Origin: a virus
IMG/VR virus record: IMGVR_UViG_3300028821_000038
Coordinates: 98,315-162,314 of that record
DNA length: 64,000 bases
Strand: one strand, 5' to 3'
Shown in pieces: positions 1,573 through 46,645 of this stretch. The translations under genes were made by a program, and so were the position numbers. Position 1 is the first letter of the stretch. Each line of letters starts with the position of its first letter. Under the pieces are notes generated by a model, which saw only the letters and a list, made by a program, of their open reading frames with translations, ran no database searches and had not been told where the DNA came from.

Positions 1573-2043
1573 ATGAAGAAAAAAGAAAGCGTTTCGAAAC
1601 AACTAAGAGAGAAAATAAAAAGGCTCAAAAAAGAAGAGCTTGCTTATGCCGCCCTCCCTGGTGCTCTTCCTCTTGGGGCTGCTCCTGTAGCTGGAATGGC
1701 AATGGGTAACAGAAGTGGGCATAAAACAGCAGGATTCTTCCTGGGGCCATCTGGTGTTCTTGGTGCTGAGGATAAGAATACAGGCAAAAATCACGCTGCT
1801 GAGGCTATTATTGGTCCCGCGCTTGGAGCAGGGATTGTGGGCGGACTTGCTGGTGTTAAAAATTCTGCAGGTTCACCTCTTAGTAGAGCACGCCTAGCAT
1901 CTATTATGGCGACTGGTGGTCTTCTTGGTGGGGCTGCTGGAGGTACATTTTCTTATTATATGGGAAAAGGTCTAGGTAAAAAATATAGCAAAAATGAGGC
2001 GGCTTTGGAGGATATCAATCCAAAATATATTTCTAAAAAATAA
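1573..2043 (+). CDS. cationic Gly/Ala-rich protein with glycine-zipper-like hydrophobic segments
   Basis: ATG 1573 after AAAGGA and TGATATAAT; GAGIVGGLAG and GGLLGGAAGG helices. Confidence 0.75.
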   Translation: MKKKESVSKQLREKIKRLKKEELAYAALPGALPLGAAPVAGMAMGNRSGHKTAGFFLGPSGVLGAEDKNTGKNHAAEAIIGPALGAGIVGGLAGVKNSAGSPLSRARLASIMATGGLLGGAAGGTFSYYMGKGLGKKYSKNEAALEDINPKYISKK

Positions 2044-2050
2044 ATACAAT

Positions 2051-2087
2051 GGGGCCGCATTGCGCCCCTTCTTCTCTTCTCGTTTTT
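2051..2087 (+). terminator. intrinsic terminator
   Basis: ggggccgc-att-gcgcccc followed by pyrimidine/T run. Confidence 0.5.
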
Positions 2088-2201
2088 AATCTTCTTTTTA
2101 CTACTTATTAGTCGTTTGGTTTTGTGATGATTTAGATGGTATATATCATTGGATAGGAATGTTTGCTAGAAATAGCCAATATTATTTATAAAGGAGAAGA
2201 A

Positions 2202-2465
2202 ATGAATTATAAAGATGTGTATGAGACGCAAGGGAAAATAGGGCAGTTCTGCAATGCCCTTAAAGAATATGCGGATCCGGTCGATCTTATGACCGGTATC
2301 GTAACATCAATGACTTATGAGGTTGCTGTAGAGGTTTACTGCCCCAAGAAAAACAGCAACCTCGTAGTTATTGCCCTTGGGGGCAAGAAGCAGGTTATAG
2401 AGGCGCGCCTGTTTCTAGAAGGTGTTAGAGATATAGATATCGTCTACACGCTTGAGTTAAAGTAG
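2202..2465 (+). CDS. hypothetical protein
   Basis: AAGGAG RBS before ATG 2202; upstream TGGTATATAT promoter-like motif. Confidence 0.7.
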   Translation: MNYKDVYETQGKIGQFCNALKEYADPVDLMTGIVTSMTYEVAVEVYCPKKNSNLVVIALGGKKQVIEARLFLEGVRDIDIVYTLELK

Positions 2466-2545
2466 GCTATCTATATCTTGCCTGAGATGGCTAGGGTGTT
2501 TCGAAATGAAGAGCACGCCAAAAATTCAAATAAAAGGAGAATACC

Positions 2546-2719
2546 ATGTATGACGAGTTAAACCAAAGGGCCGCAGAAGCGACAGATAAATTCGATGATG
2601 TGGAAAGCATCATCAAAAACTTCCTCGACGAAATAGAGGATGAAGAAGAGGACATTGAGATGGAATTTATTCCCGAAGGAATAGAGTGGTTTGATCTCAT
2701 GGGATACTGGGAAATATAA
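2546..2719 (+). CDS. 57-aa highly acidic protein (missing from ORF track)
   Basis: AAAAGGAGA RBS; MYDELNQRAAEATDKFDDVESIIKNFLDEIEDEEEDIEMEFIPEGIEWFDLMGYWEI; followed by hairpin and T-run. Confidence 0.75.
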   Translation: MYDELNQRAAEATDKFDDVESIIKNFLDEIEDEEEDIEMEFIPEGIEWFDLMGYWEI

Positions 2720-2800
2720 CCACTCTATGGGGGTTTCCCCCTCCCAGTTCTTTTTTAGCATACATTAGGTATTATCGCTCAAAAAATATAAAGGACGAAT

Positions 2801-3403
2801 ATGAGTAAAAGCACAGAATATCTATATGGGTGTATACCCTCCGATTTTATATATATGAATTACTTGGAAGCTTTACGGTATAAGAGAGACAAAGCGAAGG
2901 CGTTGTACTTCAAGCTAAAGAAGAGCATAGAGGAAGGCGGTGGGACATTCGAGAAGAGAAAAAGAGAGTTTCATGTTTACAATGCATGGAAATTTAATGA
3001 GAAATTAATTGATGAAGTGGAGCAGGATATGGACAATAATGATTATGATACGGAATTGGATATGGAAATATATAAAAAGACGAAGAGTTGTCTATTGAAT
3101 AAGATAAATGATATTCTTGATAGTTCATGGAATCTTGATAGGCTCCTGAAAAACAAGTATTGGAATATTGGATGTCCGGTTGTGAAGATATTGACCGAAA
3201 TACCTGTAGGCAAGAATCAAACCAGAAGAGATATATACCTTAGACTCATCAATATAATATGGAAAGATAAAGATAGTGTTTTGATGGGAGGAGAGTATGG
3301 TTCGTTTCTTAGTTTCACAGATAAGAAGCTAAAAGAAATGATTAAAAATGTGAAAAATGGGCAAGATATAAACTTTTGGCCACATATTAATTCCGAAAAA
3401 TGA
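2801..3403 (+). CDS. hypothetical protein
   Basis: 200-aa ORF, AAAGGA RBS. Confidence 0.75.
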   Translation: MSKSTEYLYGCIPSDFIYMNYLEALRYKRDKAKALYFKLKKSIEEGGGTFEKRKREFHVYNAWKFNEKLIDEVEQDMDNNDYDTELDMEIYKKTKSCLLNKINDILDSSWNLDRLLKNKYWNIGCPVVKILTEIPVGKNQTRRDIYLRLINIIWKDKDSVLMGGEYGSFLSFTDKKLKEMIKNVKNGQDINFWPHINSEK

Positions 3404-3470
3404 TTTTTTTGTAGTATAATTTTCTCAAGGGATTTGTCCCTATTCACAAAAAAGACGAAAAGGACTTAAT

Positions 3471-4373
3471 ATGGATCTTATAAAAATTGCTCATTCTCCC
3501 GAGTTTTCCTACCTTGAAAAGGTGGCTACTATAGTTGATGAGTTTGCAGCTGGAAATATCGATGGTTCTACTGCGGATGCGATAGCTATGGATGTGGGAA
3601 TAGACCCAGAGGATCTTCTATCTGTATATAATCTGGCCTATGGTGAGGATGGATACGAAGACTACGATATGGAGAAGACTGCCGCTGATGAATCTCTCAA
3701 AATTCTTGAAAAAGTAGCAGCAGATCCTGAAGCGACATATCTCGACAAGGTTGCTTCTGTCGCCTATTCTTATGCAGCAGGAGCCCTTACAGGTAATGAG
3801 GCTGATGCGATAGCTATGAATATCGGTGTAGACCCCGAAGATGTTGGTGATTATTTCATCTCTACTTATATGGACGGCGATATGGAGAAGACTGCCGCTG
3901 ATGAATCTCTCGAGTTTCTGGAGAAAATAGCTTACAGTCCCGATTCTACATATCTTGAAAAGGCTGCCGCTGTTGTAGATGCTTTTGCAGCAGGAGCCCT
4001 TACAGGTAATGAGGCTGATGATATAGCCATGAATATGGGTGTGGATCCTAGTGACCTTGTAGATGTGTTTAGAATTGCATATGGTGATGAACTTGACAAA
4101 GAAGCCGGTGTTATAGATGCCGTGAAGAATTTTGGTGGTCATTTGTCCGGTAGAAATGTAAAAAACGCTGAAGAAGCACTCGCGAATGCAGGCCCAAAAA
4201 ATAAATTTTACACGCCTAGTGGTTACAAAAAGGCTCTTCAAGAGATAGATGATGCTAAGCAGGCACTTGAACACGCAAAGAAAATGCAACGCATAAGTAG
4301 GATAGGTGCTGGTGTAGGTGCTGGTGCCCTTGCTGGAGCCGGTATTTACGCTGCTACAAGAAAAAGGCGATAA
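3471..4373 (+). CDS. repeat-containing acidic/basic bipartite protein, putative head-internal precursor
   Basis: Three ~71-aa acidic repeats, nine [LM]xKxA motifs, basic Gly-rich C-terminus GAGVGAGALAGAGIYAATRKRR. Confidence 0.8.
   Translation: MDLIKIAHSPEFSYLEKVATIVDEFAAGNIDGSTADAIAMDVGIDPEDLLSVYNLAYGEDGYEDYDMEKTAADESLKILEKVAADPEATYLDKVASVAYSYAAGALTGNEADAIAMNIGVDPEDVGDYFISTYMDGDMEKTAADESLEFLEKIAYSPDSTYLEKAAAVVDAFAAGALTGNEADDIAMNMGVDPSDLVDVFRIAYGDELDKEAGVIDAVKNFGGHLSGRNVKNAEEALANAGPKNKFYTPSGYKKALQEIDDAKQALEHAKKMQRISRIGAGVGAGALAGAGIYAATRKRR
3665..4020 (+). repeat. intragenic tandem duplication, 213-nt period
   Basis: Identical blocks cgatatggagaagactgccgctgatgaatctctc (3665, 3878) and tgcagcaggagcccttacaggtaatgaggctgatg (3773, 3986). 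Confidence 0.85.
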
Positions 4374-4376
4374 TTA

Positions 4377-4562
4377 ATGTCTCTTGGAGATTTGCAAAAA
4401 AGAGCGGGTATTGCCCGCCAGCTTGGAAACAATATGCTGGCGGGAGCGAAAAGAGGAATTGGAAATTTTAGAAAAAATATAAAATCTCCTATCGAAACCC
4501 TTAAGAGGGGTTTTGGGTCTCCAAGAAAAAGCGCCCATGGCGAATCGCAGAGAGTAGTATGA
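4377..4562 (+). CDS. small basic KxA-motif protein
   Basis: MSLGDLQKRAG start parallels MTLGQLEKNSG of the next gene. Confidence 0.6.
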   Translation: MSLGDLQKRAGIARQLGNNMLAGAKRGIGNFRKNIKSPIETLKRGFGSPRKSAHGESQRVV

Positions 4563-4610
4563 GATAGCCAGAAGATTAGGATCAAGATTTAAACAGAGGA
4601 GATATGGAAA

Positions 4611-5267
4611 ATGACACTAGGACAATTAGAGAAAAATTCAGGATTCATTAAAGATGCTTGGAATGCTAGACCCAAGAAGACTATACTTGAGACAATAGTG
4701 CCGGAAATACATGGTGACATGAAGAAGTACCGAAAAGCTGCCAAACAATATAACAAGGCACAAACAGGTTATATGAAGGCTGAAGTAAAATATGCACAAG
4801 GTAAAGCCAACAAGAAAATCGTAGGTAAACATGAGTTAGCACGCCGAAAAGCAATATTAAAACAACGCAAAAAAGAACTCAAACAGCTTAAAAAAATGAA
4901 AGGTGAAAGAGCAAAAGCTATCTTCTCGGGCGACTGGAAGCGAACAAAAGAGGATATTGGAAAGGTGACCAGTGCTGGTTCCAAGGTGCTAAGAAGAGCA
5001 GGAGAAGGTATAGGAAAAGGCGTTAAGGATTTCGGAGAAAGCATAGGAAGGGGTTATGCAGGTGCTAAAGGTATGCTTAAGAGACAAGAAGTTGCCCCAC
5101 CGCCACCGCCAACTCTCGGCCAGAAGGTGAAGGATTTCTATACAAGAGACTTCAGGGAAGGCGGAGCTAAAGGTTACGCCAAAGGTGCAGCCAAGGTTCT
5201 TGGAACTGGTGCTGGAATGGGCGGTGCAGGATATGGAGCTTACCAGGCAACCCAGCGTCACAGATAA
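4611..5267 (+). CDS. very basic Gly-rich KxS-motif protein
   Basis: AGGAG RBS; MTLGQLEKNSG; C-terminal GTGAGMGGAGYGAYQ. Confidence 0.75.
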   Translation: MTLGQLEKNSGFIKDAWNARPKKTILETIVPEIHGDMKKYRKAAKQYNKAQTGYMKAEVKYAQGKANKKIVGKHELARRKAILKQRKKELKQLKKMKGERAKAIFSGDWKRTKEDIGKVTSAGSKVLRRAGEGIGKGVKDFGESIGRGYAGAKGMLKRQEVAPPPPPTLGQKVKDFYTRDFREGGAKGYAKGAAKVLGTGAGMGGAGYGAYQATQRHR

Positions 5268-5279
5268 GCAAAACAACTC

Positions 5280-5411: not shown

Positions 5412-7346
5412 GTGGCTGATGTAAAAAGAAAAAGAGCATTCCCTATAGATGTAGATATGGCGTATTCCAAGTACAGAGAGTTTTGGGATAAGGACTATAG
5501 TGAGATATTTCTGACGATGGCTGGTATTGGTGATGTGTGGGAGTCGCCAAGTGGTAATTTCGAGAATAGTTTCGTGGGTATTTCTACAATAGGCGGCATT
5601 GAAATTTACAAAGACAAAATCTATATAGTGCAAGGCTATGGTATGCAAACCATAGTGAAGGTCATAAGCCCACAGGGTATTGAAATATACGGTATTGGAC
5701 CTACAGGAATATTGATGAAGTCCTGTAATAGAGGGCTGCAGGGCAACCTGACTGTGCTAAACGATGATGAATTAATCGTTGGCTATATGTATGTAAATCT
5801 AAAGAGGTTGTTTTCAGCGCCATATGGAATAGACCTGGGCAGCCTATATGGCAATAAGTATTGGAAGATAAGCAATTCAAGAGTAAGCTCTGTCGCCTGG
5901 GTTAGTGGTGTTCAGGATTTGGGAGGTTGGTCTATCGCTCTATTCAAGAGGGCTGCTATGGAGGACTGTTTTGATTGCGATATAAAGAAGAAATTGGCGG
6001 CAGAAAACAAAGCTTTTGAATGTGAGCAGATAGACAACTCATTCAATCTTCATGGATTCTCTTTTGCGAAGAAGGCAACTCGTTCCATGATAGCCACAGG
6101 CGTAAGTATGTCTATATCAAGAATGGGGGGCTTGGAGTTAATGGATGATATCAAGCCACCCAGTGGAGATGGCGTAACCTGTCTGCAGGCCATAGCTAAG
6201 TATCAGAAGGTGTTCAAAAAACAGAAGCCATCTGCCTCCGAAATAGGAAATGTTGGAAACTTGATATCAGAGAAGTGCAGCTCATATATGATGCGGTATG
6301 TCGTGGAGATATCCAGCTATAGAGAAAGCGTTGACCAGATGTATGAGAATTATGTGGAAAAAAGCATCAGGGGTGATGCTGACGCCAATGAATGGCTTAT
6401 ACAAAACAGCAGGGATGTAGTGTCGTTGATTGCTCCTGCTCTTAGTGACATAACCGCCACCGCGATAGACAATAACACAATAGACCTTCTTTTTGAGGAT
6501 ATTGTGTGGTGGGCGCCAATATGGTTTATTGCAAACCCAGACAAGGTGCTGGAAGGCCAGATTGGGGCGGCATACAACACAGCTAGGCTTATAGATAGAG
6601 ACAACTTTATAAAGGCACTGAAAAATGCCGCGATGAGTGCTCCTCCGCTCCCTAGTGATTCACCATTCAAGGTGAAGTGGGTACTTGCGTCTCCTGCTGG
6701 TACCAAGCCTGCCAAATTTGTAAAAAACACGGCGACTTTCTATAGTTTTCCAATGGGTATATGCTATTCAGCAGATATTATTGCCCGAGCAGATAGAGAT
6801 GCGTTCGATTGGATATGTGAAGTGGAGACCAGGGCTGACGGAATGCTTATATGGGCGTGGAAGAATGTATCGCCACTCAATGAGAAATTCGATATGGTTC
6901 TAAAGTGTTTCAAGGTTACAAATGATGGCCAATTTACAGAAATTGCCTCTACTCATGTAGGGAGATGGGGAACTCCGCTGTCTGGTTCCGCAAAGGCTGT
7001 AGCTGTATCTCCGGATAACACTTTTTTTGTGGTTAGGGATTACTACCTGAAGAATAGCAAAACCGGGCCGATAGCATTTACCGAGGTGAAGGTCAATATA
7101 AATGCGGATATGACCGAAATACTAAATCTCCCCATAGTGAACCACTACGCCAATATAGATGAGGTCACATTGGACTACATGCAAACCAACATACATCACT
7201 GGAATGATGGCTTGTTCGAGTCTGACTGGTCTGATTTTGATCTTGACGACAATACGGTTAGAATGATGACTGGGCAGAGTATAGATTACCTATCGTTCGT
7301 GAAGGGGTACTCTGCTTATAAAGTTGGGGAATTAGGAAGTTGGTGA
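5412..7346 (+). CDS. putative virion structural protein
   Basis: 644-aa ORF heading the tail cluster; no recognised domain. Confidence 0.7.
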   Translation: MADVKRKRAFPIDVDMAYSKYREFWDKDYSEIFLTMAGIGDVWESPSGNFENSFVGISTIGGIEIYKDKIYIVQGYGMQTIVKVISPQGIEIYGIGPTGILMKSCNRGLQGNLTVLNDDELIVGYMYVNLKRLFSAPYGIDLGSLYGNKYWKISNSRVSSVAWVSGVQDLGGWSIALFKRAAMEDCFDCDIKKKLAAENKAFECEQIDNSFNLHGFSFAKKATRSMIATGVSMSISRMGGLELMDDIKPPSGDGVTCLQAIAKYQKVFKKQKPSASEIGNVGNLISEKCSSYMMRYVVEISSYRESVDQMYENYVEKSIRGDADANEWLIQNSRDVVSLIAPALSDITATAIDNNTIDLLFEDIVWWAPIWFIANPDKVLEGQIGAAYNTARLIDRDNFIKALKNAAMSAPPLPSDSPFKVKWVLASPAGTKPAKFVKNTATFYSFPMGICYSADIIARADRDAFDWICEVETRADGMLIWAWKNVSPLNEKFDMVLKCFKVTNDGQFTEIASTHVGRWGTPLSGSAKAVAVSPDNTFFVVRDYYLKNSKTGPIAFTEVKVNINADMTEILNLPIVNHYANIDEVTLDYMQTNIHHWNDGLFESDWSDFDLDDNTVRMMTGQSIDYLSFVKGYSAYKVGELGSW

Positions 7347-12857: not shown

Positions 12858-13133
12858 ATGGATTATGAGAAGTTGTATATGGCGATATTGGCGCTTGTAA
12901 TCATTATTGCCACTTTTTATCTTGGAGATAGGCTTTTGACTAGTACTATCCCCCTGGAAAACAGAGATATTCTAAATGTTGCTCTGGGTATGATTCTTGG
13001 TTTAAGTGGAACTGTTGTTGGATACTACTTTGGAAGTTCTAAAAGCAGTAGCGACAAACAGAAGATAATCAAATATAAAGAAGAGATAAAAAAACCTAAA
13101 AAGATGGAAAAAACAGATGCCAGCGAAACTTGA
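12858..13133 (+). CDS. holin-like two-TM membrane protein
   Basis: Two hydrophobic segments, GYYFGSSKSS motif, charged C-tail. Confidence 0.6.
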   Translation: MDYEKLYMAILALVIIIATFYLGDRLLTSTIPLENRDILNVALGMILGLSGTVVGYYFGSSKSSSDKQKIIKYKEEIKKPKKMEKTDASET

Positions 13134-13476
13134 AAGGAAGAGTGAATCTTCAGCATGGGCTATATGTAGGTCTTCACTGGGGCTTACAAAGACAGCTTTG
13201 GCGCCCGGTGGTCCTATATACAACAACCTTCAAAGGAAGGCTGCAGCAATAGAATGGCAGCACTGGCCATCCCCAAGGGATACTTTTATTAATGATGATA
13301 ATGTGCATAGCATGTTTCAGGCCGAGAAGGTGTTTAGTGCAAGGGAAGCAAAGCTAAAAAGAATAAGGGCTGATTTGGCCAGACTGAATCTTAGAACCCA
13401 TCCTGGTGCAAAAAAGAAGGTTGCATCAGGGTTGGGCAGTATGTTCACAAAAGCAATGAAGATGTTTACAAGGTAG
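13117..13476 (+). CDS. basic KxA-motif protein
   Basis: LGLTKTAL and KKVASG motifs. Confidence 0.6.
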   Translation: MPAKLERKSESSAWAICRSSLGLTKTALAPGGPIYNNLQRKAAAIEWQHWPSPRDTFINDDNVHSMFQAEKVFSAREAKLKRIRADLARLNLRTHPGAKKKVASGLGSMFTKAMKMFTR

Positions 13477-13480
13477 GGTT

Positions 13481-14047
13481 ATGTGGAAAGAAGTTAGTGG
13501 TTTCCAGGAATATGAAGTCCACCCAAAACATGGAGTTAGGCGAAAGGGTAAAGATAAAACACTGAAGCCTAGAACATGGCTTGGATACCCAAAAGTCACT
13601 CTTATGAGAGATGGCAGAAAGCATGAAGTTAGGGTTCATAGGCTAATTGCAGAACATTTTATTGAGAACCCCAACAATCTTCCTATAGTTAACCATAAAG
13701 ACTCCAATAGGTCAAATTACAATGTGGATAACCTTGAATGGGTTGACAATAGCGGAAATCAATTACATAGATGGCATACTAAAAAGCAAGGATTAAAGAA
13801 GATAAAATACAGACCAGAGTATGGACTTGCTAAGGTTGCTTATCGAGCTCAAGATGCAGGATACGGACCAAATAAAGAGTCTGAAAAAAAGTGTAAAGGA
13901 TTATCCAGAGTAGAGAAAATTGGTCTTGGTGCGGCCATTGGAGGTGGATTGTCATACTTGGCATCAAAAAAATTCAAACTTGTGTCATCTCCTATGGAGC
14001 ATGTGGCTGCTGGCGGTATTGGTGCATTACTTGGCGCTCAGGCTTAG
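13481..14047 (+). CDS. HNH homing endonuclease (NUMOD4/HNH-type) fused to a Gly-rich KxA module
   Basis: WKEVSGFQEYEV; VHRLIAEHF; VNHKDSNRSNYNVDNLEW; C-terminal YGLAKVA...GLGAAIGGGL. Confidence 0.85.
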   Translation: MWKEVSGFQEYEVHPKHGVRRKGKDKTLKPRTWLGYPKVTLMRDGRKHEVRVHRLIAEHFIENPNNLPIVNHKDSNRSNYNVDNLEWVDNSGNQLHRWHTKKQGLKKIKYRPEYGLAKVAYRAQDAGYGPNKESEKKCKGLSRVEKIGLGAAIGGGLSYLASKKFKLVSSPMEHVAAGGIGALLGAQA

Positions 14048-14151
14048 GTATAGTTGATACCTTGGCTTGTAATATTATGTATTTTTTTATATTCCTAAAA
14101 AAAGGATAAAATATATTTAGAATATGACTATCAAAAATGCAAGGAGCAAAA

Positions 14152-14409
14152 ATGAGATATGGATTAGGCAAATTAGCTGAGGAAATGGAAAATGAGGGGC
14201 TTGGACTTGGACAACCCGGGCGAGCCGATATAAAACATTCTGCAGGTGCGGCTATTGGCGGTATTTCCAGTTATGGGCTAATGAGGAAACTTAACTTTGG
14301 AAGGCTCCCCAGTGCATTGGCCGGTATTGCTGGTGGTGTAGGTGGCGCCATAGGTGTTGACAAACTTCAACAGTACAAAAACAGAAAATTATCAAATAGA
14401 TTTCAATAG
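14152..14409 (+). CDS. Gly-zipper KxA-motif protein
   Basis: AAGGAG RBS; MRYGLGKLAEE; GAAIGG and LAGIAGGVGGAIG. Confidence 0.7.
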   Translation: MRYGLGKLAEEMENEGLGLGQPGRADIKHSAGAAIGGISSYGLMRKLNFGRLPSALAGIAGGVGGAIGVDKLQQYKNRKLSNRFQ

Positions 14410-14421
14410 GAAGGATTTGTA

Positions 14422-14715
14422 ATGGTATCCAGCCGTAAACTTACAAAAAAAGAGCTGATGATAAAAAATAGAGTTAGAGATATAGCAAGCAGAAAGGGGC
14501 TCCTGTACAAGGAAACCCTGATGAAAAAAGCTGCTCCTTTTACATATCTCGGAGGTGCTGCGAAGGGTGCAGTCAGAAACACCACTAAAAAAGGTGGCGT
14601 GCATCTTGGTAATGCATATGCAAAGTCTTCAAAACCTGATAGAATATCATGGGGAAGAGTCGCGACAGGTGTTGGTCTCGGTGGACTTGGAGTCGGTATG
14701 TATACACTTAGATAA
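14422..14715 (+). CDS. basic protein with C-terminal Gly-rich helix
   Basis: LMKKAAP; GVGLGGLGVGMY. Confidence 0.65.
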   Translation: MVSSRKLTKKELMIKNRVRDIASRKGLLYKETLMKKAAPFTYLGGAAKGAVRNTTKKGGVHLGNAYAKSSKPDRISWGRVATGVGLGGLGVGMYTLR

Positions 14716-14722
14716 GGATGAG

Positions 14723-15494: not shown

Positions 15495-15502
15495 GGACTA
15501 AT

Positions 15503-15916: not shown

Positions 15917-16628
15917 ATACAGACCATACTCTGAGAATAATATATTATTTAGGATTAGTTCTACTAAGGCGCTGGAAAGGTTTAAGGCACAACAGTTTTT
16001 TGTTTTATCCGAAATAAACAGTGGTTCATATAAATTTTCAAAAACCTCAAGAGAACTTGCGATACTTTTTACGGATGTTATGTTTGGGTGGCTATTATCA
16101 GTTGAGCACTACTTAATAAGAAGTGATTCGAGTGTGTTTATTGAAGAACATAAGAATACTATACTAGATAAGCTTAAGGAGTCTATCTTGTATATAAATA
16201 ATATAGTATCAGAGAATAAGGATATATTTGATAATCGTGAATCGCGCATTGTTATAGATAATGTTTCTTTGAGGCATGAGTATGTGGAGAGATTCTTTAA
16301 AGAATTGGTTGGTGAATATATTGCAGATGCTTTTTCTGCAATAGCTGCAATACTTACCGAGAGTATAGATAGCTTCCGATTTGAGCTTTATGAGGTTGAC
16401 TATTTGATAAATTGTAAAAAAAATCCATTTATCTGCATTACTGATTTTATGCTGAATATATATACTCAATATAGGTACTGCATAGCAGTAGATAGAGCAT
16501 CCCTATATAAAAAAGTATTCAAAGTTGATTCTTTTAAGGTAAAAAATTACTCATCGGCATCTGTGATATCATCTCAGGTTAATTGCTTGAGAGATAACGG
16601 AATCAAGGTGACAAATGTTATGGCATAA
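15906..16628 (+). CDS. hypothetical protein
   Basis: ATG 15906 after AAGGA; overlaps neighbours. Confidence 0.65.
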   Translation: MKLEYRPYSENNILFRISSTKALERFKAQQFFVLSEINSGSYKFSKTSRELAILFTDVMFGWLLSVEHYLIRSDSSVFIEEHKNTILDKLKESILYINNIVSENKDIFDNRESRIVIDNVSLRHEYVERFFKELVGEYIADAFSAIAAILTESIDSFRFELYEVDYLINCKKNPFICITDFMLNIYTQYRYCIAVDRASLYKKVFKVDSFKVKNYSSASVISSQVNCLRDNGIKVTNVMA

Positions 16629-16821
16629 AGCAGGATTGGCGCTTATAAAACTATCCAATGCAAAACATAGGGGCCCATTTTATTATATAAATAGAAACAA
16701 AAGGCTTGGCCGTAGGCCAAAAATGATGAGTGCCAAAGATTATGCAAAATTTAAGGTTACGCTCAGGATAGCTAGACAGCGTGCAAAAACAAGGTCAAGA
16801 GGAAGAAGGCAAATGAGATGA
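16615..16821 (+). CDS. small Arg/Lys-rich protein
   Basis: LIKLSN motif; RQRAKTRSRGRR; coupled to both neighbours. Confidence 0.55.
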   Translation: MLWHKAGLALIKLSNAKHRGPFYYINRNKRLGRRPKMMSAKDYAKFKVTLRIARQRAKTRSRGRRQMR

Positions 16822-19616: not shown

Positions 19617-19617
19617 G

Positions 19618-19758: not shown

Positions 19759-19773
19759 CCAAGGAGTTAGGAC

Positions 19774-20457: not shown

Positions 20458-20467
20458 GAGGTGTTTC

Positions 20468-22264: not shown

Positions 22265-22277
22265 CCTTAGGAGAAAT

Positions 22278-36215: not shown

Positions 36216-37256
36216 ATGATTGATATACAAAACGATTCAAATTTTGCATTCCTGAATATGGCATATGGAGGCGAGATGCCAATAGAGCTGGAGAAGGTTG
36301 CAATGGAAGCCTCTCAAGGCTATGATTTAGATAGATATGTTGATGGTGCATTTGCAGACCAGGAAAATAGAAAATTCCCTATATTCACTCCTGAAATGGC
36401 GGTGCTTAGCGCAGCATATATGCAGCATCAGGATATAGATCCTCTTGTGAAAGAGGCTTGCGAGAGAGCTTTACAGGATTGGGGTATAGAAGGTATATCT
36501 TTGGATAAACAGGAGAGAGAAGAACAATACCTGGAACTTCCCAAGGAGGCCTTTCTATTGAAAGAGGCTCAAAAATTCCCGGTGATAGACAGAGACACTC
36601 TTGAAAAATCAGCATATGCAGTCAAGTCTTCACTGGGACAAATGGACATTCCGCAAAGAGTAGAAGCTTGTACGAATCTTTACAAGAAAGCTGTTTATGA
36701 ATACGATGTTGATCCAACCGAGCTGGGAGAGGATATCGTTAGCTATGCACAGGAGGCTCCATGTAGCCTAGTGAAGCTTGCTATGTCCATCAATGAGAGA
36801 TACGCAGAAACAGGCGAGCAGGGGTATCAAGATTACCTCGAAAAATTAAGTGCTTATGCTACGCAACACAAGGATGAATCATATATCTTTGATAAGTCGC
36901 TAATGTCTGGTATGGCCGTCGAACTATATTACCTAGACAAAGAGGCTGGCATACAGGGTGAGTTTGATGCAATTAGAGATGTATTTAACTCACCATTCTA
37001 TGTGAATGAAAACGGGGAGCTTGAAAAGGCCGCCACAGTAAGTAGTGTGGTGATTGGGGATTATTATATCCCAGAGCAAGCTCTTGAGAAAGTGGCACGA
37101 GAAGAGTTTGCGGAAGCATTCCCAGGGCTTGATGAAGAAGTGTATGTAGGAGACGATCTTGACCCAGATAAGCTGGTACAGGTAGTGGACGAAGTTTTGA
37201 TTATCCCGGAGTCTAAAAATCAAGTAGGGGAGTTTTTGAATCAGTATGTTAACTAA
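36216..37256 (+). CDS. acidic multi-KxA protein, putative scaffold/head-assembly protein
   Basis: LEKVA, LEKSA, LVKLA, LEKLS, LDKEA, LEKAA, LEKVA; internal repeat AFAD..RKFPI / AFLL..QKFPV. Confidence 0.7.
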   Translation: MIDIQNDSNFAFLNMAYGGEMPIELEKVAMEASQGYDLDRYVDGAFADQENRKFPIFTPEMAVLSAAYMQHQDIDPLVKEACERALQDWGIEGISLDKQEREEQYLELPKEAFLLKEAQKFPVIDRDTLEKSAYAVKSSLGQMDIPQRVEACTNLYKKAVYEYDVDPTELGEDIVSYAQEAPCSLVKLAMSINERYAETGEQGYQDYLEKLSAYATQHKDESYIFDKSLMSGMAVELYYLDKEAGIQGEFDAIRDVFNSPFYVNENGELEKAATVSSVVIGDYYIPEQALEKVAREEFAEAFPGLDEEVYVGDDLDPDKLVQVVDEVLIIPESKNQVGEFLNQYVN

Positions 37257-40675: not shown

Positions 40676-40686
40676 GGAGAATAGGT

Positions 40687-43246: not shown

Positions 43247-44077
43247 ATGGAGTACCAGATGAACACTGTCAATAAGAGAAAAAACAACGATTCAAGTGGC
43301 AGATCTGTTATAGCTGCACTTGGGGGGCTTGCTGCTTCGAAAGCCAGCAAGGAAGTACATCACGGTATTATGAGTAGAGGACTCAAAAAATTGCATTTTG
43401 AGGGAGATACCCCTCTGTCAAAAAAAGAGATAGAGGATATTAGAAAGGCTGTCGGGGCAGACCCAAAACTTCCTGTTCTTACAAATAATACCGAGCTTCT
43501 TAATCACCTTATGGATAGTTGGTATAAACAGTTCAGGAAAATTGGCTATGACGAAAAAAAGGCAGAAGCTCTTGCTGAGAAAAACGCAAAAGAAATGTTT
43601 AAGCGGAGTCATGGAGGTCCTCATTATCATAGGCTTTTCGGTTATATCTATCAAGGGGGGGAGGGAGGAAACAGTCCTACCGCTTTGGCTCATGAGTTTA
43701 CACATAGCACATCTCCTACAATAATGAATATTTCGCATATAGCTTCGAGTGTGCTTAAAACCCCCGCTACTATTTATGCTGGATATAAAGCTATTAATGA
43801 TGACAATGGATTAAGCAAAAAAGAGGCAGCTGGGCTTGCTGCCGTAATGGCACCTATGCTTGCAGAAGAAACCAGGGCCAACCATGGTGCGTATAAAGCA
43901 ATGAAAAAATTACACGGAAAGCTAACTTCCGAGATGAAAAACATGCTTCTATTGTCTGAAGGGTCATATGTGCTAGGCGCTACTGCTCCATTCATTGCGT
44001 ATGGTTTAGCCAGAGGAGGAAAGAAGGCTTATGATAAATTTTTTAAAAACGATAAGAAGGGCAGGGAAAAATCTTGA
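43247..44077 (+). CDS. HExxH zinc-metallopeptidase-like membrane protein
   Basis: LAHEFTH plus PMLAEETRAN; hydrophobic helices. Confidence 0.7.
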   Translation: MEYQMNTVNKRKNNDSSGRSVIAALGGLAASKASKEVHHGIMSRGLKKLHFEGDTPLSKKEIEDIRKAVGADPKLPVLTNNTELLNHLMDSWYKQFRKIGYDEKKAEALAEKNAKEMFKRSHGGPHYHRLFGYIYQGGEGGNSPTALAHEFTHSTSPTIMNISHIASSVLKTPATIYAGYKAINDDNGLSKKEAAGLAAVMAPMLAEETRANHGAYKAMKKLHGKLTSEMKNMLLLSEGSYVLGATAPFIAYGLARGGKKAYDKFFKNDKKGREKS

Positions 44078-44898
44078 AAAAAAGAAACAAAAAAGATGAA
44101 GAGTATTTAGATACTGCTGTGACTACAGGTGGGAAGGGGCTTGCTGGATATCTTGCTATGAATGGGGCGAATATGGCTTTTAGTTCCACCAACAAAGGTC
44201 TAGGCCGTATAGGGCAATACGGCACAGGAGTACCAGTTACCGAGTCCGACATACACAAAATAAAAAAGATTGTCGGTGCTAGAGAGGATATGCCTGTATA
44301 TACATCTTCTTCTGAAATATACAACGCCAAAAAAGATGTATTTTATAACAGGGCCAAAAAGATACTTGCAGATGCAGTCAAAAAAGGCAACCCTAAGAGT
44401 ATAATGACCGAGGAAAATTATAAAGGGGTTGCGAAGCAGTTGGCTAAACATGAAGCATCGAATACTCACTATAGCCCATCGTTTGACCATGTGGTGATTT
44501 CCAAGGATTACCATAACGATCCTCTTGCGATAGCGCATGAATTGACTCATTCTACAGCGTCAAAAATCGGAACACGCCTTTACGGTCTGTCTAGGAGGCT
44601 GCATGCTCCGGCAGCACTTTATGCTGGATATAAGGGTGCCAGTGATGATGGTATGGATAAAAAGGATGCGGCAATCGTGGGGGCCGCTGTCTTGCCTATG
44701 CTCGCAGAGGAGACCAGGGCGAATATCAATGGCTACAAAGCAGCAAAAAAGCTATACGGTAAGCTGCCCTCCAAATCATTAGCTACACTTATCGATTCGC
44801 AAGGTAGCTATATGGCATATGGCGCAGTTCCTCTGGCAGCATACGGGCTTGGTAGATTGTTCAATAAAGGTTACCATAAAGCTATGGATGAAAAATGA
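44074..44898 (+). CDS. HExxH zinc-metallopeptidase-like membrane protein (paralog)
   Basis: IAHELTH plus PMLAEETRAN; YAGYK shared with upstream gene. Confidence 0.7.
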   Translation: MKKRNKKDEEYLDTAVTTGGKGLAGYLAMNGANMAFSSTNKGLGRIGQYGTGVPVTESDIHKIKKIVGAREDMPVYTSSSEIYNAKKDVFYNRAKKILADAVKKGNPKSIMTEENYKGVAKQLAKHEASNTHYSPSFDHVVISKDYHNDPLAIAHELTHSTASKIGTRLYGLSRRLHAPAALYAGYKGASDDGMDKKDAAIVGAAVLPMLAEETRANINGYKAAKKLYGKLPSKSLATLIDSQGSYMAYGAVPLAAYGLGRLFNKGYHKAMDEK

Positions 44899-44930
44899 TA
44901 TAATCTTAAAAACCATTTAAGGGGTAAATT

Positions 44931-45173
44931 ATGGCAGTTGAACTTGAAAAAATAGCAAAACTTCTTGAGGACGCATACGATAGGATTTCTGCGCTTGAGC
45001 AGGAGAATGAGAGATTGCAAAGCGGAGTTTCTTTACCAAAAGAGGCAAAACAGGACATTTTTGGGGATAATGACGAGCCTGGTGATATATTTACAATGGG
45101 GCATGTCGCCGAAATACACTCTGAAAATGGTGTGTCTGCTGATGCAAGATTGGATGAATTTTTAGCCGGATAG
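44931..45173 (+). CDS. small acidic KxA protein, possible scaffold
   Basis: MAVELEKIAK, coiled coil, just upstream of head genes. Confidence 0.65.
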   Translation: MAVELEKIAKLLEDAYDRISALEQENERLQSGVSLPKEAKQDIFGDNDEPGDIFTMGHVAEIHSENGVSADARLDEFLAG

Positions 45174-45207
45174 TGTCTTTTTTTTCTTTTGTCTTCCTTG
45201 CCCCATT

Positions 45208-45234
45208 AAAAAAGTACGATTATTCGTACTTTTT
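45208..45234. promoter_or_regulatory. palindrome upstream of the capsid operon (terminator or operator)
   Basis: aaaaagtacga-ttat-tcgtacttttt. Confidence 0.5.
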
Positions 45235-45299
45235 CTATTTATTTAAGTTTTAATATACAATTATTTTGTTTATTAAACAAAAAAATAAAAAGGAAAGAC

Positions 45300-45695
45300 A
45301 TGAAGAATATAGAAATTGTTTGCGGGTACCGCTCGTTCGGACACGAAGATGTCTATGCTTCTGATCCTGCTGTGGTTGTTGTAGAGGGTGATATTATAGA
45401 GCCCTCTGGTGCAAAAGTAACACTGTCTGGCTCCACGGTTCACAAAGAGTGCGGCATTGTTATTGAAAGAAACTATATCAATGGCCAACCCAAAGATAGT
45501 GGGAAGATCCCGGTATATGTTTCCAACTTTGTCGTTAGAACATCAAGATATACTCCCGCTACCTATGCTCCAAATGATCCTATAACTGTTACCGATGGAC
45601 TTCCCGCTAAAGGGACTGTTGGCACGGATGCAATATGGGGTTATGTTGTTGCTGTAAATCAAGATGGAACACTCGATATTAGAGTGAATTACTAA
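45300..45695 (+). CDS. putative capsid decoration protein
   Basis: 131 aa, beta-rich, immediately upstream of the probable MCP. Confidence 0.55.
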   Translation: MKNIEIVCGYRSFGHEDVYASDPAVVVVEGDIIEPSGAKVTLSGSTVHKECGIVIERNYINGQPKDSGKIPVYVSNFVVRTSRYTPATYAPNDPITVTDGLPAKGTVGTDAIWGYVVAVNQDGTLDIRVNY

Positions 45696-45709
45696 GAAGG
45701 AGTTGAGAG

Positions 45710-46645
45710 ATGACTACTGAAACACCAAGTGTAAAACAAACCAATGCGACTTTGGTTAGAAAGATATATCAGTCTCCTGAACTCCTGAAAGAGGCGATGG
45801 AGAACTCTACCTACTTTATTCGTGAGAAAGTCCGTGAACTTGGATTTGCGAGAAAGCTGATAGAGCCTATCTTTGTAACCGCTGCAGACCTCGACAGAAC
45901 TGTTGAAAATGATCAGCCTACCATTATCCTCGAAAAAGATATGGAGGCCAAGGCGTACACTCTCCCGTTCCGTGGACAAGGTGAGAGTAAATACTGGGAA
46001 GGCGATAAATTCCTTATCACATTCCAAAAAGTAGAGTCTGATCACTTCAATAAGTCTAAATTTGAGATGATGAACAGCAAGACCGACTATAAGACGCTTC
46101 TTCAAAAGCGTATAGTTGAAGAGATGTTCAAAACCGAAGATGAGACTATGCTGGCGGCATTTAACAAGGTTATTGCGGATGCAGAAAATACAGCACCCGG
46201 AACACAGTTCCAGCAAGTGACTGGTGGACTCACCAAGACAAACATCAAAATTCTGATTCAGATGCTTTCCAAGCTCAGAATGCTTCCTCCTGCTGGCGGA
46301 CCGAAGCCCAAAATTCTGATGAACCAGACCCTGAAGATGGAACTCATTGAGCTCGGTATGATCGAGATTGGTGATAGCAATGTTGGTAAGTATTGGAATG
46401 AAGGAACAGTGGGTGTAAGCTCTCTGTTTGGAGTACCTGTTGTGGATACCATCAAGAACGATCTTGTAAAAGACGACGAGATGTATATAATTGCACCGCA
46501 GGACTACTTCGGAAGATTCTTTATTCTCCAGGACCACACAATGGTTATCAAGACCGAAGCTGATATGATTAACTTTTGGTCGTATTCTTCCATGGGTCTT
46601 GGACTTGCAAACACAAAAGGCGTTGCAAAGATACAACTGGTATAA
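45710..46645 (+). CDS. probable major capsid protein (HK97-like fold)
   Basis: Strong RBS; C-ending codon bias suggesting high expression; last gene of head operon before a strong terminator; ILMN...LFGVPVV...MGLGLANTKGVAKIQL termini. Confidence 0.7.
   Translation: MTTETPSVKQTNATLVRKIYQSPELLKEAMENSTYFIREKVRELGFARKLIEPIFVTAADLDRTVENDQPTIILEKDMEAKAYTLPFRGQGESKYWEGDKFLITFQKVESDHFNKSKFEMMNSKTDYKTLLQKRIVEEMFKTEDETMLAAFNKVIADAENTAPGTQFQQVTGGLTKTNIKILIQMLSKLRMLPPAGGPKPKILMNQTLKMELIELGMIEIGDSNVGKYWNEGTVGVSSLFGVPVVDTIKNDLVKDDEMYIIAPQDYFGRFFILQDHTMVIKTEADMINFWSYSSMGLGLANTKGVAKIQLV

What the first reader, a model, noticed from the sequence alone, without database searches (positions are those of the whole stretch)
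1573..46645. A recurrent [LM]-x-K-x-[AS] tag marks a cohort of head-associated and membrane-active-looking proteins
Seen: the motif occurs nine times in 3471-4373, at least seven times in 36216-37256, and near the N-terminus or a domain boundary of 4377 (LQKRA), 4611 (LEKNS), 13117 (LTKTA), 13481 (LAKVA), 14152 (LGKLA), 14422 (MKKAA), 16615 (LIKLS), 44931 (LEKIA) and the probable MCP (LLKEA). It often separates a short or acidic leader from a cationic Gly-zipper segment ending in basic residues. It is not conspicuous in the tail cluster. Known: T4 gp21 and phiKZ gp175 prohead proteases cut many internal head proteins at short motifs ending in Glu. Inference: a different, Lys-x-Ala-specific capsid-targeting and maturation code that loads a set of cationic membrane-inserting peptides into the head for ejection.
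Basis: partly seen in the sequence, partly recalled or inferred. Interest (0 to 1): 0.8.

Follow-up and report, generated by a model that had tools for sequence, protein, structure and literature searches.

The report
Leu-x-Lys-x-Ala head-protease cut-site code
A short Leu-x-Lys-x-Ala tag, packed into the head-scaffold proteins of this uncultured 162-kb phage and placed just after the start of its capsid protein and several small basic proteins, is most likely where the phage's own head-maturation protease cuts. That rule differs from the "cut after glutamate" rule of the studied phages T4 and phiKZ, and no cut has been measured.

Summary
L.K.A is the most over-represented of all 8000 a.b.c patterns in the phage's proteome (64 seen, 18 expected). 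The excess sits in nine proteins (39 seen, 1.4 expected), three of them in the window (3471-4373, 36216-37256, 44931-45173). Tail and early proteins are at expectation.

The protease lies 49 kb upstream of the window. It has an assemblin/T4-gp21-type fold and carries the motif at both ends of its catalytic domain. In a family of more than 2000 sequence clusters, which includes Salmonella phage Arash and Bacillus phage G, about 90% of the sampled members have the motif at those two positions. Orthologues at 32-37% identity keep most motif positions, and so does the capsid protein's N-terminus.

Small Gly-zipper proteins in two relatives start with a short leader that ends in the motif. This resembles T4's capsid-targeting leaders.

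Best reading: this is a prohead-protease cleavage code that breaks up acidic scaffold proteins and trims leaders, probably cutting after Ala. The "membrane-inserting ejected peptides" part is not supported. The single occurrences are weak one by one, and four of them lie beside lysis-like genes.

Other agents of this scan reached the same reading on other phage genomes. I found no paper that describes the motif.

The parts
3471..4373 (+). 300-aa protein. Residues 1-212 are acidic and hold a tandem repeat with 9 motif copies. The last 88 residues are basic (net +9) and end in a Gly-zipper followed by RKRR. Predicted substrate: the acidic part would be cut into 7-52-residue pieces, releasing the basic tail.
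   Evidence: 9 motifs against 0.43 expected. Fragment lengths and charges. Tandem duplication with 213-nt period. The orthologue G1_24200-24844 (32% identity) has 6 motifs.
4377..4562 (+). 61-aa basic protein (net +10) whose 10-residue leader MSLGDLQKRA ends in the motif. Candidate leader-tagged head cargo.
   Evidence: Its leader is paralogous to that of 4611-5267. In relative G1 the syntenic position holds small Gly-zipper proteins that start MKAL.L[IL]K.[AS].
4611..5267 (+). 218-aa very basic protein (net +33) with leader MTLGQLEKNS and a Gly-zipper C-terminus ending QRHR. Candidate leader-tagged head cargo.
   Evidence: Syntenic with G1_101116-102024, which starts VMSLKKTAF. It has Ser in place of Ala at the last motif position.
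13117..13476 (+). 119-aa basic protein with LTKTA at residue 23. Weak candidate substrate.
   Evidence: One occurrence, with a chance probability of 0.12 for this protein. No family match.
13481..14047 (+). HNH homing endonuclease (residues 1-121) fused in frame to a Gly-zipper tail. LAKVA lies at the junction (residue 116), in a stretch paralogous to the leader of 14137-14409.
   Evidence: phrog_59 E 2.3e-33 and PF13392 E 1.2e-5. Sequence comparison.
14137..14409 (+). 90-aa Gly-zipper protein with LGKLA at residue 10 (residue 5 if translation starts at 14152). Either a candidate substrate or a lysis-cassette membrane protein.
   Evidence: Weak sub-threshold holin-like matches: PF05106 E 0.0017 and phrog_126 E 0.0014. 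Maximum 19-residue hydropathy is 1.26.
14422..14715 (+). 97-aa basic protein (net +17) with LMKKA/MKKAA at residues 33-34 and a Gly-zipper C-terminus. Weak candidate substrate.
16615..16821 (+). 68-aa very basic protein (net +21) with LIKLS at residue 10. Weak candidate substrate; it carries the Ser variant and has no Gly-zipper.
   Evidence: Weak similarity to G1_83819-84004.
36216..37256 (+). 346-aa acidic protein (net -42) with 11 motif copies spaced 6-52 residues apart. Predicted scaffold or core protein that the protease breaks into small pieces.
   Evidence: 11 motifs against 0.31 expected. Orthologues in G001 and G002 (32-37% identity) keep most motif columns. Codons differ between instances. 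No Pfam or PHROG family.
44931..45173 (+). 80-aa acidic helical protein two genes upstream of the capsid gene, with LEKIA at residue 5 and LPKEA at residue 35. Predicted small scaffold-type substrate.
   Evidence: 2 motifs against 0.09 expected, P 0.0025.
45710..46645 (+). Major capsid protein, 311 aa, with LLKEA at residues 25-29. The predicted mature N-terminus is Met30 if the cut follows Ala, or Glu28 if it follows Lys.
   Evidence: 34% identical to Arash gp226, annotated as major capsid protein (E 2e-49). K-x-A stands in the same place ahead of a conserved block in 8 capsid proteins compared by eye, with the hydrophobic position kept in 7. The only solved relative is phage G gp27 (6wkk).

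Best explanation
The motif (consensus Glu/Asp-Leu-Glu-Lys-[Val/Ile/Thr/Glu]-Ala-[Ser/Ala]) is the recognition and cleavage site of the phage's own prohead maturation protease. That protease is a 224-residue enzyme with an assemblin/T4-gp21-type fold and an inserted CxxC...CxH zinc-binding motif, encoded at genome 48820-49494, 49 kb upstream of the window.

Inferred mechanism, by analogy with T4 and phiKZ/SPN3US:
1. Acidic scaffold or core proteins (window 36216-37256, the N-terminal 212 residues of 3471-4373, 44931-45173, and four more outside the window) co-assemble with the capsid protein and the protease into a prohead.
2. The activated protease trims itself at the motif on each side of its catalytic domain.
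3. It removes about 29 residues from the capsid protein.
4. It cuts the scaffold proteins at motifs 6-52 residues apart, into pieces small enough to leave the shell.

Small, very basic, Gly-zipper proteins carry the motif at the end of a leader of roughly 5 to 25 residues. They are probably brought into the prohead core and have the leader removed, like T4's internal proteins with their capsid-targeting sequence.

The cut is probably after Ala (about 60:40 over a cut after Lys). Ser is enriched 4.3-fold right after Ala, which matches the P1' Ser preference of herpesvirus assemblin (my own knowledge) and of SPN3US gp245 (PMC10052503).

Shown here: the enrichment, its restriction to a head-associated set, its conservation, and the identity and fold of the protease. 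Inferred: that cleavage happens at all, which bond is cut, and that the small proteins are packaged.
For: - Enrichment. L.K.A is the top-ranked of 8000 gapped patterns (z 10.8). 39 instances against 1.4 expected lie in nine proteins, while tail, early and other proteins are at expectation.
- Protease identity. It matches phrog_18299 'head maturation protease' at E 1.4e-12. The model has pLDDT 76. The best structural matches are VZV protease (Z 8.9), T4 gp21 5jbl (Z 7.2) and HCMV protease (Z 6.5). His93 and Ser144 are invariant in the 8-sequence alignment.
- Self-bracketing in this genome. The protease has FLTKEAS at residue 28 and MMTKTAS at residue 214. Both sites are conserved in 11 IMG/VR homologues despite divergent flanks, and the longer homologues continue after the second site with motif-rich extensions.
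- Self-bracketing across the family. The family has at least 4999 representatives at E <= 1e-3 and 2100 at E <= 1e-30. Among the best 150, 107 of 115 have h.K.A within 25 residues after the PAD anchor, mostly in one register. 68 of 81 have it 37-45 residues before the NxNGD motif. Motif density is 0.81 per 100 residues in the C-terminal extensions against 0.20 in the protease core.
- Same pattern in named phages. Arash gp220, gp222 (the protease), gp223 and gp225 have 6-10 motifs each, and its capsid protein gp226 has LVKEA at residue 25. Phage G gp19 (31% identical protease) has the motif at both ends, and its portal gp14 and gp20 have it at residues 16 and 8.
- Orthologue conservation. The orthologous sets are the most motif-rich proteins in G0, G1 and G4, and the columns are conserved in the alignment of 36216-37256.
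- Leaders. All 5 small Gly-zipper proteins of G1, and most of the roughly 20 in G4, carry h.K.[AS] within their first 5 to 28 residues, most of them in the first 20. The G1 cluster is syntenic with window 3471-5267.
- Published parallel. Multiple motif copies inside propeptides, short N-terminal propeptides and a C-terminal protease propeptide are exactly what mass spectrometry found for SPN3US gp245 (PMC10052503, read).
Against: - No cleavage has been measured in this phage or, as far as I could find, in any family member.
- The only virion proteome of a relative (Arash, PMC10585845) used trypsin and a sucrose gradient. It lists 116 proteins, including ribonucleotide reductases, and reports 80-100% coverage for gp220-gp225. 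It therefore neither shows nor excludes processing.
- Pfam's prohead protease models do not match the protease, a PDB sequence search finds nothing, and Foldseek gives no significant match. The structural Z scores of 7-9 are in the range the tool itself calls middling.
- E-L-E-K-V-A is also an ordinary helix-forming sequence.
- The single N-terminal occurrences are not significant by count.
- In G4's capsid protein the hydrophobic position is Arg.
Confidence: 0.72

Rival explanations
1. The motif is a docking or address element that is bound but not cut. It would be a short amphipathic peptide that ties scaffold proteins, cargo and the protease to the capsid shell or to each other, in the way cargo-loading peptides address proteins to encapsulins.
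For: The motif occurs in multiple copies in scaffold-like proteins and at the N-termini of unrelated small proteins. Some leaders are only 3-5 residues long (MEKFA, MHKEA), so the motif itself would have to carry any address function. No cleavage data exist.
Against: A pure docking element does not explain why the motif sits at a nearly fixed distance on both sides of the protease's catalytic domain in about 90% of family members. It also does not explain why some homologues simply end within a residue of the second site while others continue for 200-800 residues. The spacing of 6-52 residues in acidic proteins mirrors the measured propeptide fragmentation in SPN3US. Docking and cutting are not mutually exclusive.
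Confidence: 0.12
2. For the subset at 13117-14715 (and perhaps 16615): these are membrane or lysis-cassette proteins (holin, antiholin or accessory proteins) unrelated to the head, and their single motif copies are chance.
For: They lie next to a 2-TM protein (12858-13133, phrog_9990 E 6.5e-12). They also neighbour a lipobox protein (15231-15494) with a weak Rz-like spanin match at E 0.004, and a TM plus coiled-coil protein (15503-15916) with a weak spanin match at E 0.007. 14137-14409 has weak holin-like matches. Each single occurrence has a chance probability of 0.08-0.13.
Against: All the lysis-type matches are below curated thresholds. The Gly-zipper segments score 1.0-1.3 in hydropathy, below a typical TM helix, whereas the true TM proteins nearby (2.1-2.9) lack the motif. 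5 of 9 small proteins carry strict L.K.A against 1.1 expected. The leader-plus-Gly-zipper architecture recurs in G1, G4 and Arash gp221 and gp224, which sit beside the Arash protease gene.
Confidence: 0.3
3. The enrichment is a by-product of internal repeats and of the Leu/Glu/Lys/Ala-rich helical composition of scaffold proteins, and the motif has no specific function.
For: 3471-4373 contains a tandem duplication that multiplies three motif copies. Scaffold proteins are Glu-, Lys-, Leu- and Ala-rich.
Against: The expectations were computed from each protein's own composition, by shuffling, and are still exceeded 20-35-fold. Given h.K, Ala follows at +2 in 85 of 153 cases; given K.A, Leu stands at -2 in 68 of 100 cases. 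36216-37256 has no DNA repeat and uses varied codons. Motif columns are conserved at 32-37% identity, and the motif sits in a fixed register at the protease domain borders in most of 115 representatives drawn from 50%-identity clusters.
Confidence: 0.03

Closest known systems
Phage T4 prohead core system: protease gp21 (MEROPS S77), scaffold/core proteins gp22, gp67 and gp68, and internal proteins IPI-III with their roughly 10-residue capsid-targeting sequence (own knowledge; reviewed in PMC9026906)
   Same: An assemblin-fold protease (T4 gp21 5jbl is the second-best structural match, Z 7.2). A short motif is repeated in scaffold proteins, stands near the capsid protein's N-terminus, and flanks the protease itself. 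Short N-terminal leaders ending at the motif sit on small basic proteins.
   Different: The T4 motif is (Leu/Ile)-x-Glu with the cut after Glu. Here the motif is Leu-x-Lys-x-Ala, with no Glu at the equivalent place. Pfam's prohead protease models do not detect this protease. It also carries a CxxC...CxH insert, which I have not compared with gp21. The cargo here is Gly-zipper-rich.
Giant-phage proteases phiKZ gp175 and SPN3US gp245, with the A/S/G-x-Glu code (PMC10052503, PMC5694885)
   Same: Several motif copies lie inside long propeptides. Short propeptides of 20-24 residues occur on some head proteins. The protease removes its own C-terminal propeptide. Ser is preferred at P1'.
   Different: Their specificity is for Glu at P1. 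Those cuts were measured by mass spectrometry, whereas here nothing has been measured.
Herpesvirus assemblin (MEROPS S21), which cuts (Val/Leu/Ile)-x-Ala|Ser at its release and maturation sites (own knowledge)
   Same: VZV protease is the best structural match (Z 8.9) and HCMV protease scores Z 6.5. The motif has an invariant Ala followed most often by Ser. The protease is released from a longer scaffold-fused precursor at a site just after the catalytic domain.
   Different: If the cut follows Ala, P3 here is Lys and the aliphatic residue is at P5, not P3. Sequence similarity is undetectable, and these are phage rather than eukaryotic-virus proteins.
Salmonella phage Arash gp222 and Bacillus phage G gp19 (annotated 'structural protein' and 'gp19' or head maturation protease; PMC10585845, PMC12484599)
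   Same: True homologues of the protease (42.5% and 31% identity). The motif is in the same places, and neighbouring head proteins are motif-rich.
   Different: Neither paper mentions a cleavage motif or processing. In phage G the capsid protein lacks the motif, and the deposited chain 6wkk is numbered from residue 1.

Membership tests
Assemblin / T4 gp21-type prohead (capsid maturation) serine protease | Assemblin-like fold | tested here: met
   The AlphaFold model has pLDDT 76. Three of the four best of 48,161 chains are capsid proteases: VZV Z 8.9 (111 aligned, rmsd 2.8), T4 gp21 Z 7.2 (117 aligned, 18% identity) and HCMV Z 6.5. The Z values are moderate, and Foldseek alone was not significant.
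Assemblin / T4 gp21-type prohead (capsid maturation) serine protease | Conserved catalytic His and Ser, in that order | tested here: inconclusive
   His93 (in WNHDN) and Ser144 (in VSMG) are invariant in 8 homologues at 34-65% identity. I could not check residue by residue that they superpose on the catalytic pair of 5jbl.
Assemblin / T4 gp21-type prohead (capsid maturation) serine protease | Match to a curated sequence family of prohead proteases | tested here: inconclusive
   phrog_18299 'head maturation protease' matches at E 1.4e-12. No Pfam family matches at E <= 0.01, and a profile search finds no PDB sequence.
Assemblin / T4 gp21-type prohead (capsid maturation) serine protease | Proteolytic activity on head proteins | not testable with these tools
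   This needs recombinant enzyme or virion N-terminomics.
T4-type prohead cleavage code with capsid-targeting leaders | A short motif concentrated in scaffold/core proteins and absent from tail and early proteins | tested here: met
   39 against 1.4 expected in nine proteins; tail 1 against 1.5; early genes 3 against 1.6. It is the top-ranked of 8000 patterns.
T4-type prohead cleavage code with capsid-targeting leaders | The motif flanks the protease's own catalytic domain (self-processing sites) | tested here: met
   Sites at residues 28 and 214 in this phage. They are conserved in 107 of 115 (C-terminal side) and 68 of 81 (N-terminal side) family representatives. Only the sequence pattern is shown; processing itself is not.
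T4-type prohead cleavage code with capsid-targeting leaders | Cut after Glu in (Leu/Ile)-x-Glu or Ala-x-Glu | tested here: not met
   The conserved residues are Leu(-2), Lys(0) and Ala(+2). Glu is only a preference at -1 and -3. This is therefore a different specificity class, not a member of the Glu-code group.
T4-type prohead cleavage code with capsid-targeting leaders | Short N-terminal leaders ending at the motif on small internal proteins | tested here: met
   In G0: 4377, 4611, 14137 and genome 8789. In G1: 5 of 5 small Gly-zipper proteins. In G4: most of about 20. Only the sequence pattern is shown; targeting is not.
T4-type prohead cleavage code with capsid-targeting leaders | Cargo present in virions with the leader removed | not testable with these tools
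   The Arash proteome lists gp220-gp225, but the preparation also holds many non-structural enzymes, and coverage values of 80-100% say nothing about termini.
Herpesvirus assemblin site (Val/Leu/Ile)-x-Ala|Ser | Ala at P1 and Ser at P1' | tested here: inconclusive
   Ala follows h.K in 85 of 153 cases (5.6x enriched). Among 85 h.K.A sites the next residue is Ser in 23 (4.3x) and Ala in 13. The scissile bond is unknown.
Herpesvirus assemblin site (Val/Leu/Ile)-x-Ala|Ser | Aliphatic residue at P3 | tested here: not met
   If the cut follows Ala, P3 is the invariant Lys and Leu is at P5.
Holin / lysis membrane proteins (for 14137-14409 and neighbours) | Curated family match and at least one hydrophobic transmembrane helix | tested here: inconclusive
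   PF05106 scores 19.1 bits against a cut-off of 23.8 (E 0.0017), and phrog_126 has E 0.0014. The best 19-residue hydropathy is 1.26, under the usual 1.6.

The most novel reading that the evidence does not exclude
Leu-x-Lys-x-Ala is both the address and the cut site of a previously uncharacterised specificity class of assemblin-fold prohead proteases. These would cut after Ala, as herpesvirus proteases do, rather than after Glu as in every studied phage relative. The class would be shared by more than 2000 sequence clusters, including phage G, Arash and cluster C mycobacteriophages. Any protein that starts with a leader of a few to about 25 residues ending in the motif, here a set of very basic Gly-zipper proteins, would be loaded into the capsid and trimmed. 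That would give a portable capsid-loading tag and a rule for predicting mature virion proteomes across this clade.
Probability: 0.35. Interest if true: 0.75.

Novelty: new variant of a known kind. Interest (0 to 1): 0.6.

Why it matters
Prohead proteases and their cut-site codes have been worked out by experiment in only a few phages: T4, phiKZ/SPN3US, HK97 and P1, most of which cut after Glu.

A conserved Leu-x-Lys-x-Ala code for a protease family with thousands of members would have three uses:
- It would let one predict mature capsid, portal and internal-protein termini in many uncultured and cultured large phages, which helps fit cryo-EM maps and interpret virion proteomes.
- It would identify scaffold and cargo proteins that have no detectable homology.
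- It would offer a candidate short tag for loading foreign proteins into capsids.

It also links phage and herpesvirus proteases more closely if the cut is Ala|Ser. The claim can be tested directly in two cultured phages, Arash and phage G.

Tried and rejected
- Pfam on the protease and nine head-region proteins found no usable family. A PDB sequence-profile search with the protease alignment found nothing. Foldseek against the PDB gave no match at E <= 0.001; only the exhaustive VIA-align search gave the capsid-protease matches.
- The search for related loci in viral contigs with window 5412-7346 and with 36216-37256 found no relatives. I reached orthologues instead by searching whole related records and by local BLAST.
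- A count of proteins with a relaxed motif in their first 30 residues was not significant (24 against 17.6 +/- 3.9). I therefore do not rely on position counts.
- The Arash virion proteome is not informative about cleavage: trypsin digestion, a sucrose gradient, many non-structural proteins, and no deposited-data statement found.
- Literature searches for a Lys/Ala prohead cleavage motif, for phage G, for 0305phi8-36 and for the cluster C mycobacteriophage capsids found no description of this motif. The phage G capsid paper (J Mol Biol 2020, PMC7316594) is not held. Absence from the held library is not proof that the motif is unpublished.
- I considered whether the two HExxH proteins at 43247-44898 could be the maturation protease. 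I rejected this as the main candidate because they lack the motif, have no known protease family match, and a conserved assemblin-type protease exists.
- I could not decide from sequence whether the cut follows Lys or Ala. Homologues that end at ...TKS, and leaders that begin M-x-K-x-A, fit both.

Full report
**What the window is.** The window is bases 98315-162314 of a single 162,314-bp phage contig. Its plus strand from about 1.4 to 46.6 kb carries late genes:
- small basic proteins;
- a long tail/baseplate cluster rich in LamG-type domains;
- a TnpB-like insertion;
- the large terminase (PF05876, E 3.8e-12);
- a Dam methylase;
- two HExxH paralogues;
- an 80-aa acidic protein, a 131-aa protein and the major capsid protein.

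The capsid protein is 34% identical to gp226 of Salmonella phage Arash, which is annotated as its major capsid protein (E 2e-49). Relatives are otherwise Vibrio phages and uncultured IMG/VR contigs.

**The observation.** [LM]xKx[AS] occurs 9 times in 3471-4373 (0.43 expected from shuffles of that protein), 11 times in 36216-37256 (0.31 expected) and twice in the 80-aa 44931-45173 (0.09 expected). All listed single sites are present.

Of all 8000 residue patterns of the form a.b.c, L.K.A is the most over-represented in the 207-protein proteome (64 seen, 18.2 expected, z 10.8), and the runner-up has z 5.8. The excess is confined to one group of proteins:

| Protein set | L.K.A observed | L.K.A expected |
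|---|---|---|
| Nine motif-rich proteins | 39 | 1.4 |
| 18 tail/baseplate proteins of the window | 1 | 1.5 |
| 30 early minus-strand proteins | 3 | 1.6 |
| 112 other proteins outside the window | 13 | 10.9 |

A logo from 87 instances in this phage and a 161-kb relative reads (Glu/Asp)-Leu-Glu-Lys-(Val/Glu/Ile/Thr)-Ala-(Ser/Ala). Conditional counts show that Leu, Lys and Ala each depend on the other two. Ser in place of Ala is at background inside the motif-rich proteins, while Ser right after Ala is 4.3-fold enriched.

In 36216-37256 the instances use different codons, so the pattern is not a DNA repeat. In 3471-4373 a tandem duplication with a 213-nt period multiplies three motif copies.

**The protease.** It is at genome 48820-49494, 49 kb before the window. 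It matches the PHROG family 'head maturation protease' (E 1.4e-12). A model built on eight homologues (pLDDT 76) is closest, among 48,161 PDB representatives, to varicella-zoster virus protease (Z 8.9), T4 gp21 (Z 7.2, 18% identity) and cytomegalovirus protease (Z 6.5). His93 and Ser144 are invariant, as are four Cys/His residues of an inserted CxxC...CxH motif. Pfam, a PDB sequence search and Foldseek alone do not recognise it, so it is a distant member of the assemblin/gp21 fold group.

Next to it lie a 199-aa acidic protein with five motifs and a 46-aa peptide with three. An earlier first-reader note on this genome pointed me to those two ORFs.

**The motif brackets the protease.** The protease has FLTKEAS at residue 28 and MMTKTAS at residue 214, ten residues from its end. 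In 11 IMG/VR homologues at 30-64% identity, both sites align as hydrophobic-x-Lys-x-Ala-small although the surrounding sequence is not conserved. Some homologues stop within a residue of the second site, and others continue with extensions of 200-800 residues that contain further motifs.

A profile search of 1.84 billion representative proteins returned at least 4999 family members at E <= 1e-3 and 2100 at E <= 1e-30. Among the best 150:
- 107 of 115 with a recognisable PAD anchor have the motif within 25 residues after it, nearly always in the same register;
- 68 of 81 have it 37-45 residues before the NxNGD motif;
- motif density is 0.81 per 100 residues in the C-terminal extensions and 0.20 in the catalytic core.

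Bacillus phage G gp19 (31% identical) and Arash gp222 (42.5% identical) show the same arrangement. Mycobacteriophage Catera gp94 has K-T-A-G at the equivalent C-terminal place.

**Conservation in the substrates.** In this phage, in the complete relative G001 and in the more distant G004, the most motif-rich proteins are the same kinds of head-region proteins. Orthologues of 36216-37256 at 32-37% identity keep most motif positions in the alignment. Arash gp220, gp223 and gp225, which flank its protease gene, carry 6-10 motifs each.

In eight capsid proteins compared by eye, Arash's among them, K-x-A stands in the same place just ahead of a conserved block, about 25 residues from the start. The hydrophobic position is kept in seven. 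Phage G's capsid protein lacks the motif, and its deposited chain (6wkk) is numbered from residue 1, which at least does not contradict the link.

**The small proteins.** With a relaxed motif, proteins carrying it in the first 30 residues number 24 against 17.6 +/- 3.9 in shuffles. With the strict motif, 5 of the 9 small basic or Gly-rich proteins of the window carry it against 1.1 expected (P about 0.002, set chosen after the fact).

The comparative evidence is stronger:
- In G001 all five small Gly-zipper proteins begin with a short leader ending in the motif; three of them start MKAL.L and all five share the LxK core (the other two start VMSLKKTA and ...MLYKIS).
- In G004 most of some twenty do, in families starting MEKFA, MI[ND]KLA or ...GFVK[QST]A.
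- The G001 cluster lies at the position syntenic with window 3471-5267, upstream of the homologues of 5412-7346 and 7340-9268. BLAST no longer detects similarity between the small proteins themselves.
- Arash gp221 and gp224, beside its protease gene, have the same architecture.

So a leader ending in the motif, followed by a Gly-zipper body, is a conserved design. After the last motif, 3471-4373 leaves an 88-residue fragment of net charge +9, whereas the preceding fragments are all acidic or neutral.

**What is not supported.** The Gly-zipper segments reach only 1.0-1.5 on a 19-residue hydropathy scan. True membrane proteins nearby (12858-13133, 15503-15916) reach 2.1-2.9 and lack the motif. 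The motif-bearing small proteins are extremely basic (net +10, +33, +13, +17, +21). That suits DNA-associated internal head proteins at least as well as membrane insertion.

Four of them (13117-14715) sit beside a two-TM protein, a lipobox protein with a weak spanin match, and a TM plus coiled-coil protein. 14137-14409 has weak, sub-threshold holin-like matches. A lysis role for that subset is a live rival. 13481-14047 is an HNH endonuclease (phrog_59, E 2.3e-33) fused in frame to a Gly-zipper tail, and the 'domain boundary' motif lies in a stretch paralogous to the leader of 14137-14409.

**Mechanism.** The best-supported explanation is a prohead-protease cleavage code of the T4 or phiKZ kind with a different specificity. 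The measured behaviour of SPN3US gp245 is the template: several motif copies inside propeptides, short propeptides of 20-24 residues on some head proteins, a C-terminal propeptide on the protease, and Ser preferred at P1' (PMC10052503). Every sequence feature of that template is present here.

Which bond is cut cannot be settled from sequence. A cut after Lys would keep the family habit of an aliphatic P3 (T4 Leu/Ile-x-Glu; assemblin Val/Leu/Ile-x-Ala; my own knowledge). A cut after Ala would place the three conserved residues at P5, P3 and P1 on one face of an extended strand. It would also make the enriched Ser the P1' residue, as in assemblin and SPN3US. I lean about 60:40 towards Ala|Ser.

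**Comparison and novelty.** The principle is known. The motif and the size of the protease family that carries it are, as far as I could find, not described. The Arash and phage G papers do not mention processing, and the searches listed under Tried and rejected found nothing. The library lacks most subscription journals, and the phage G capsid paper was not available.

Other follow-up agents of this scan reached the same 'Lys-x-Ala head-protease code' reading on several other phage genomes, and two first-reader notes flagged the protease in this genome. I treat those as leads, not as evidence. My own tests of this genome and of the family agree with them. I rate this a new variant of a known kind, of moderate to high interest, with a direct experimental test available in Arash or phage G.

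Noticed in passing
window 13481-14047: An HNH homing endonuclease (phrog_59 E 2.3e-33) is fused in frame to a Gly-zipper tail. The junction (EYGLAKVAY) is paralogous to the leader of the neighbouring 14137-14409 (RYGLGKLAE). It looks as if the endonuclease gene landed on the start of a paralogue and lost its stop codon.
   Followed up: partly
window 38334-39920: A TnpB / IS605 OrfB-like protein (PF12323 E 6e-9, PF07282 E 3.4e-7) is inserted in the head module between a LamG protein and the terminase region. The surrounding 4 kb has the highest GC of the window (0.456 against about 0.40).
   Followed up: partly
window 43247-44077 and 44074-44898: Two adjacent paralogous 275-aa basic proteins carry HEFTHS/HELTHS and a conserved AEETRAN downstream, which looks like a gluzincin metalloprotease signature. 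They have no Pfam or PHROG family. Atlas neighbours are phage-only clusters of unknown function, and the nearest named cluster (Peptidase M48) scores only 0.75.
   Followed up: partly
window 12858-15916: A possible lysis cassette: a two-TM protein (phrog_9990 E 6.5e-12); an 89-aa coiled-coil protein overlapping by 4 nt a lipobox protein (LFLGGC; Rz-like spanin E 0.004); and a TM plus coiled-coil protein (spanin-like E 0.007). All lysis matches are weak.
   Followed up: partly
loci L018-L020; proteins P0037, P0042, P0045, P0061, P0082, P0133: Several homologues of the prohead protease are 850-1230 residues long because of large inserts that split the catalytic domain into two matched stretches. 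The inserts look like inteins with homing-endonuclease parts.
   Followed up: no
window 36216-37256 (residues about 50-60 and 117-125); genome 49491-49748: A short [RQ]-K-F-P-[IV] motif occurs twice in the scaffold-like protein and once in the 85-aa protein encoded right after the protease gene. There is a weak sub-threshold match to DUF6582 (E 0.0022).
   Followed up: no
window 18774-24014: Four consecutive tail-cluster proteins (18774, 19774, 20468, 22278) begin with a similar N-terminal segment (GF.(L/F)(F/Y).D(P/E/K).L), suggesting a family of paralogues that share an attachment domain.
   Followed up: no
window 15873-16628: A 251-aa protein matches phrog_19088 (E 5.5e-22), which PHROGs labels 'ABC transporter' in the moron/auxiliary category. 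It sits between the lysis-like genes and the tail cluster.
   Followed up: no
window 40687-42255: The large terminase has two strict motif copies (LLKTA at residue 42, LTKCA at residue 60) in its ATPase domain. This is probably chance (3 relaxed hits against 0.57 expected), and the terminase is not expected inside the prohead.
   Followed up: no
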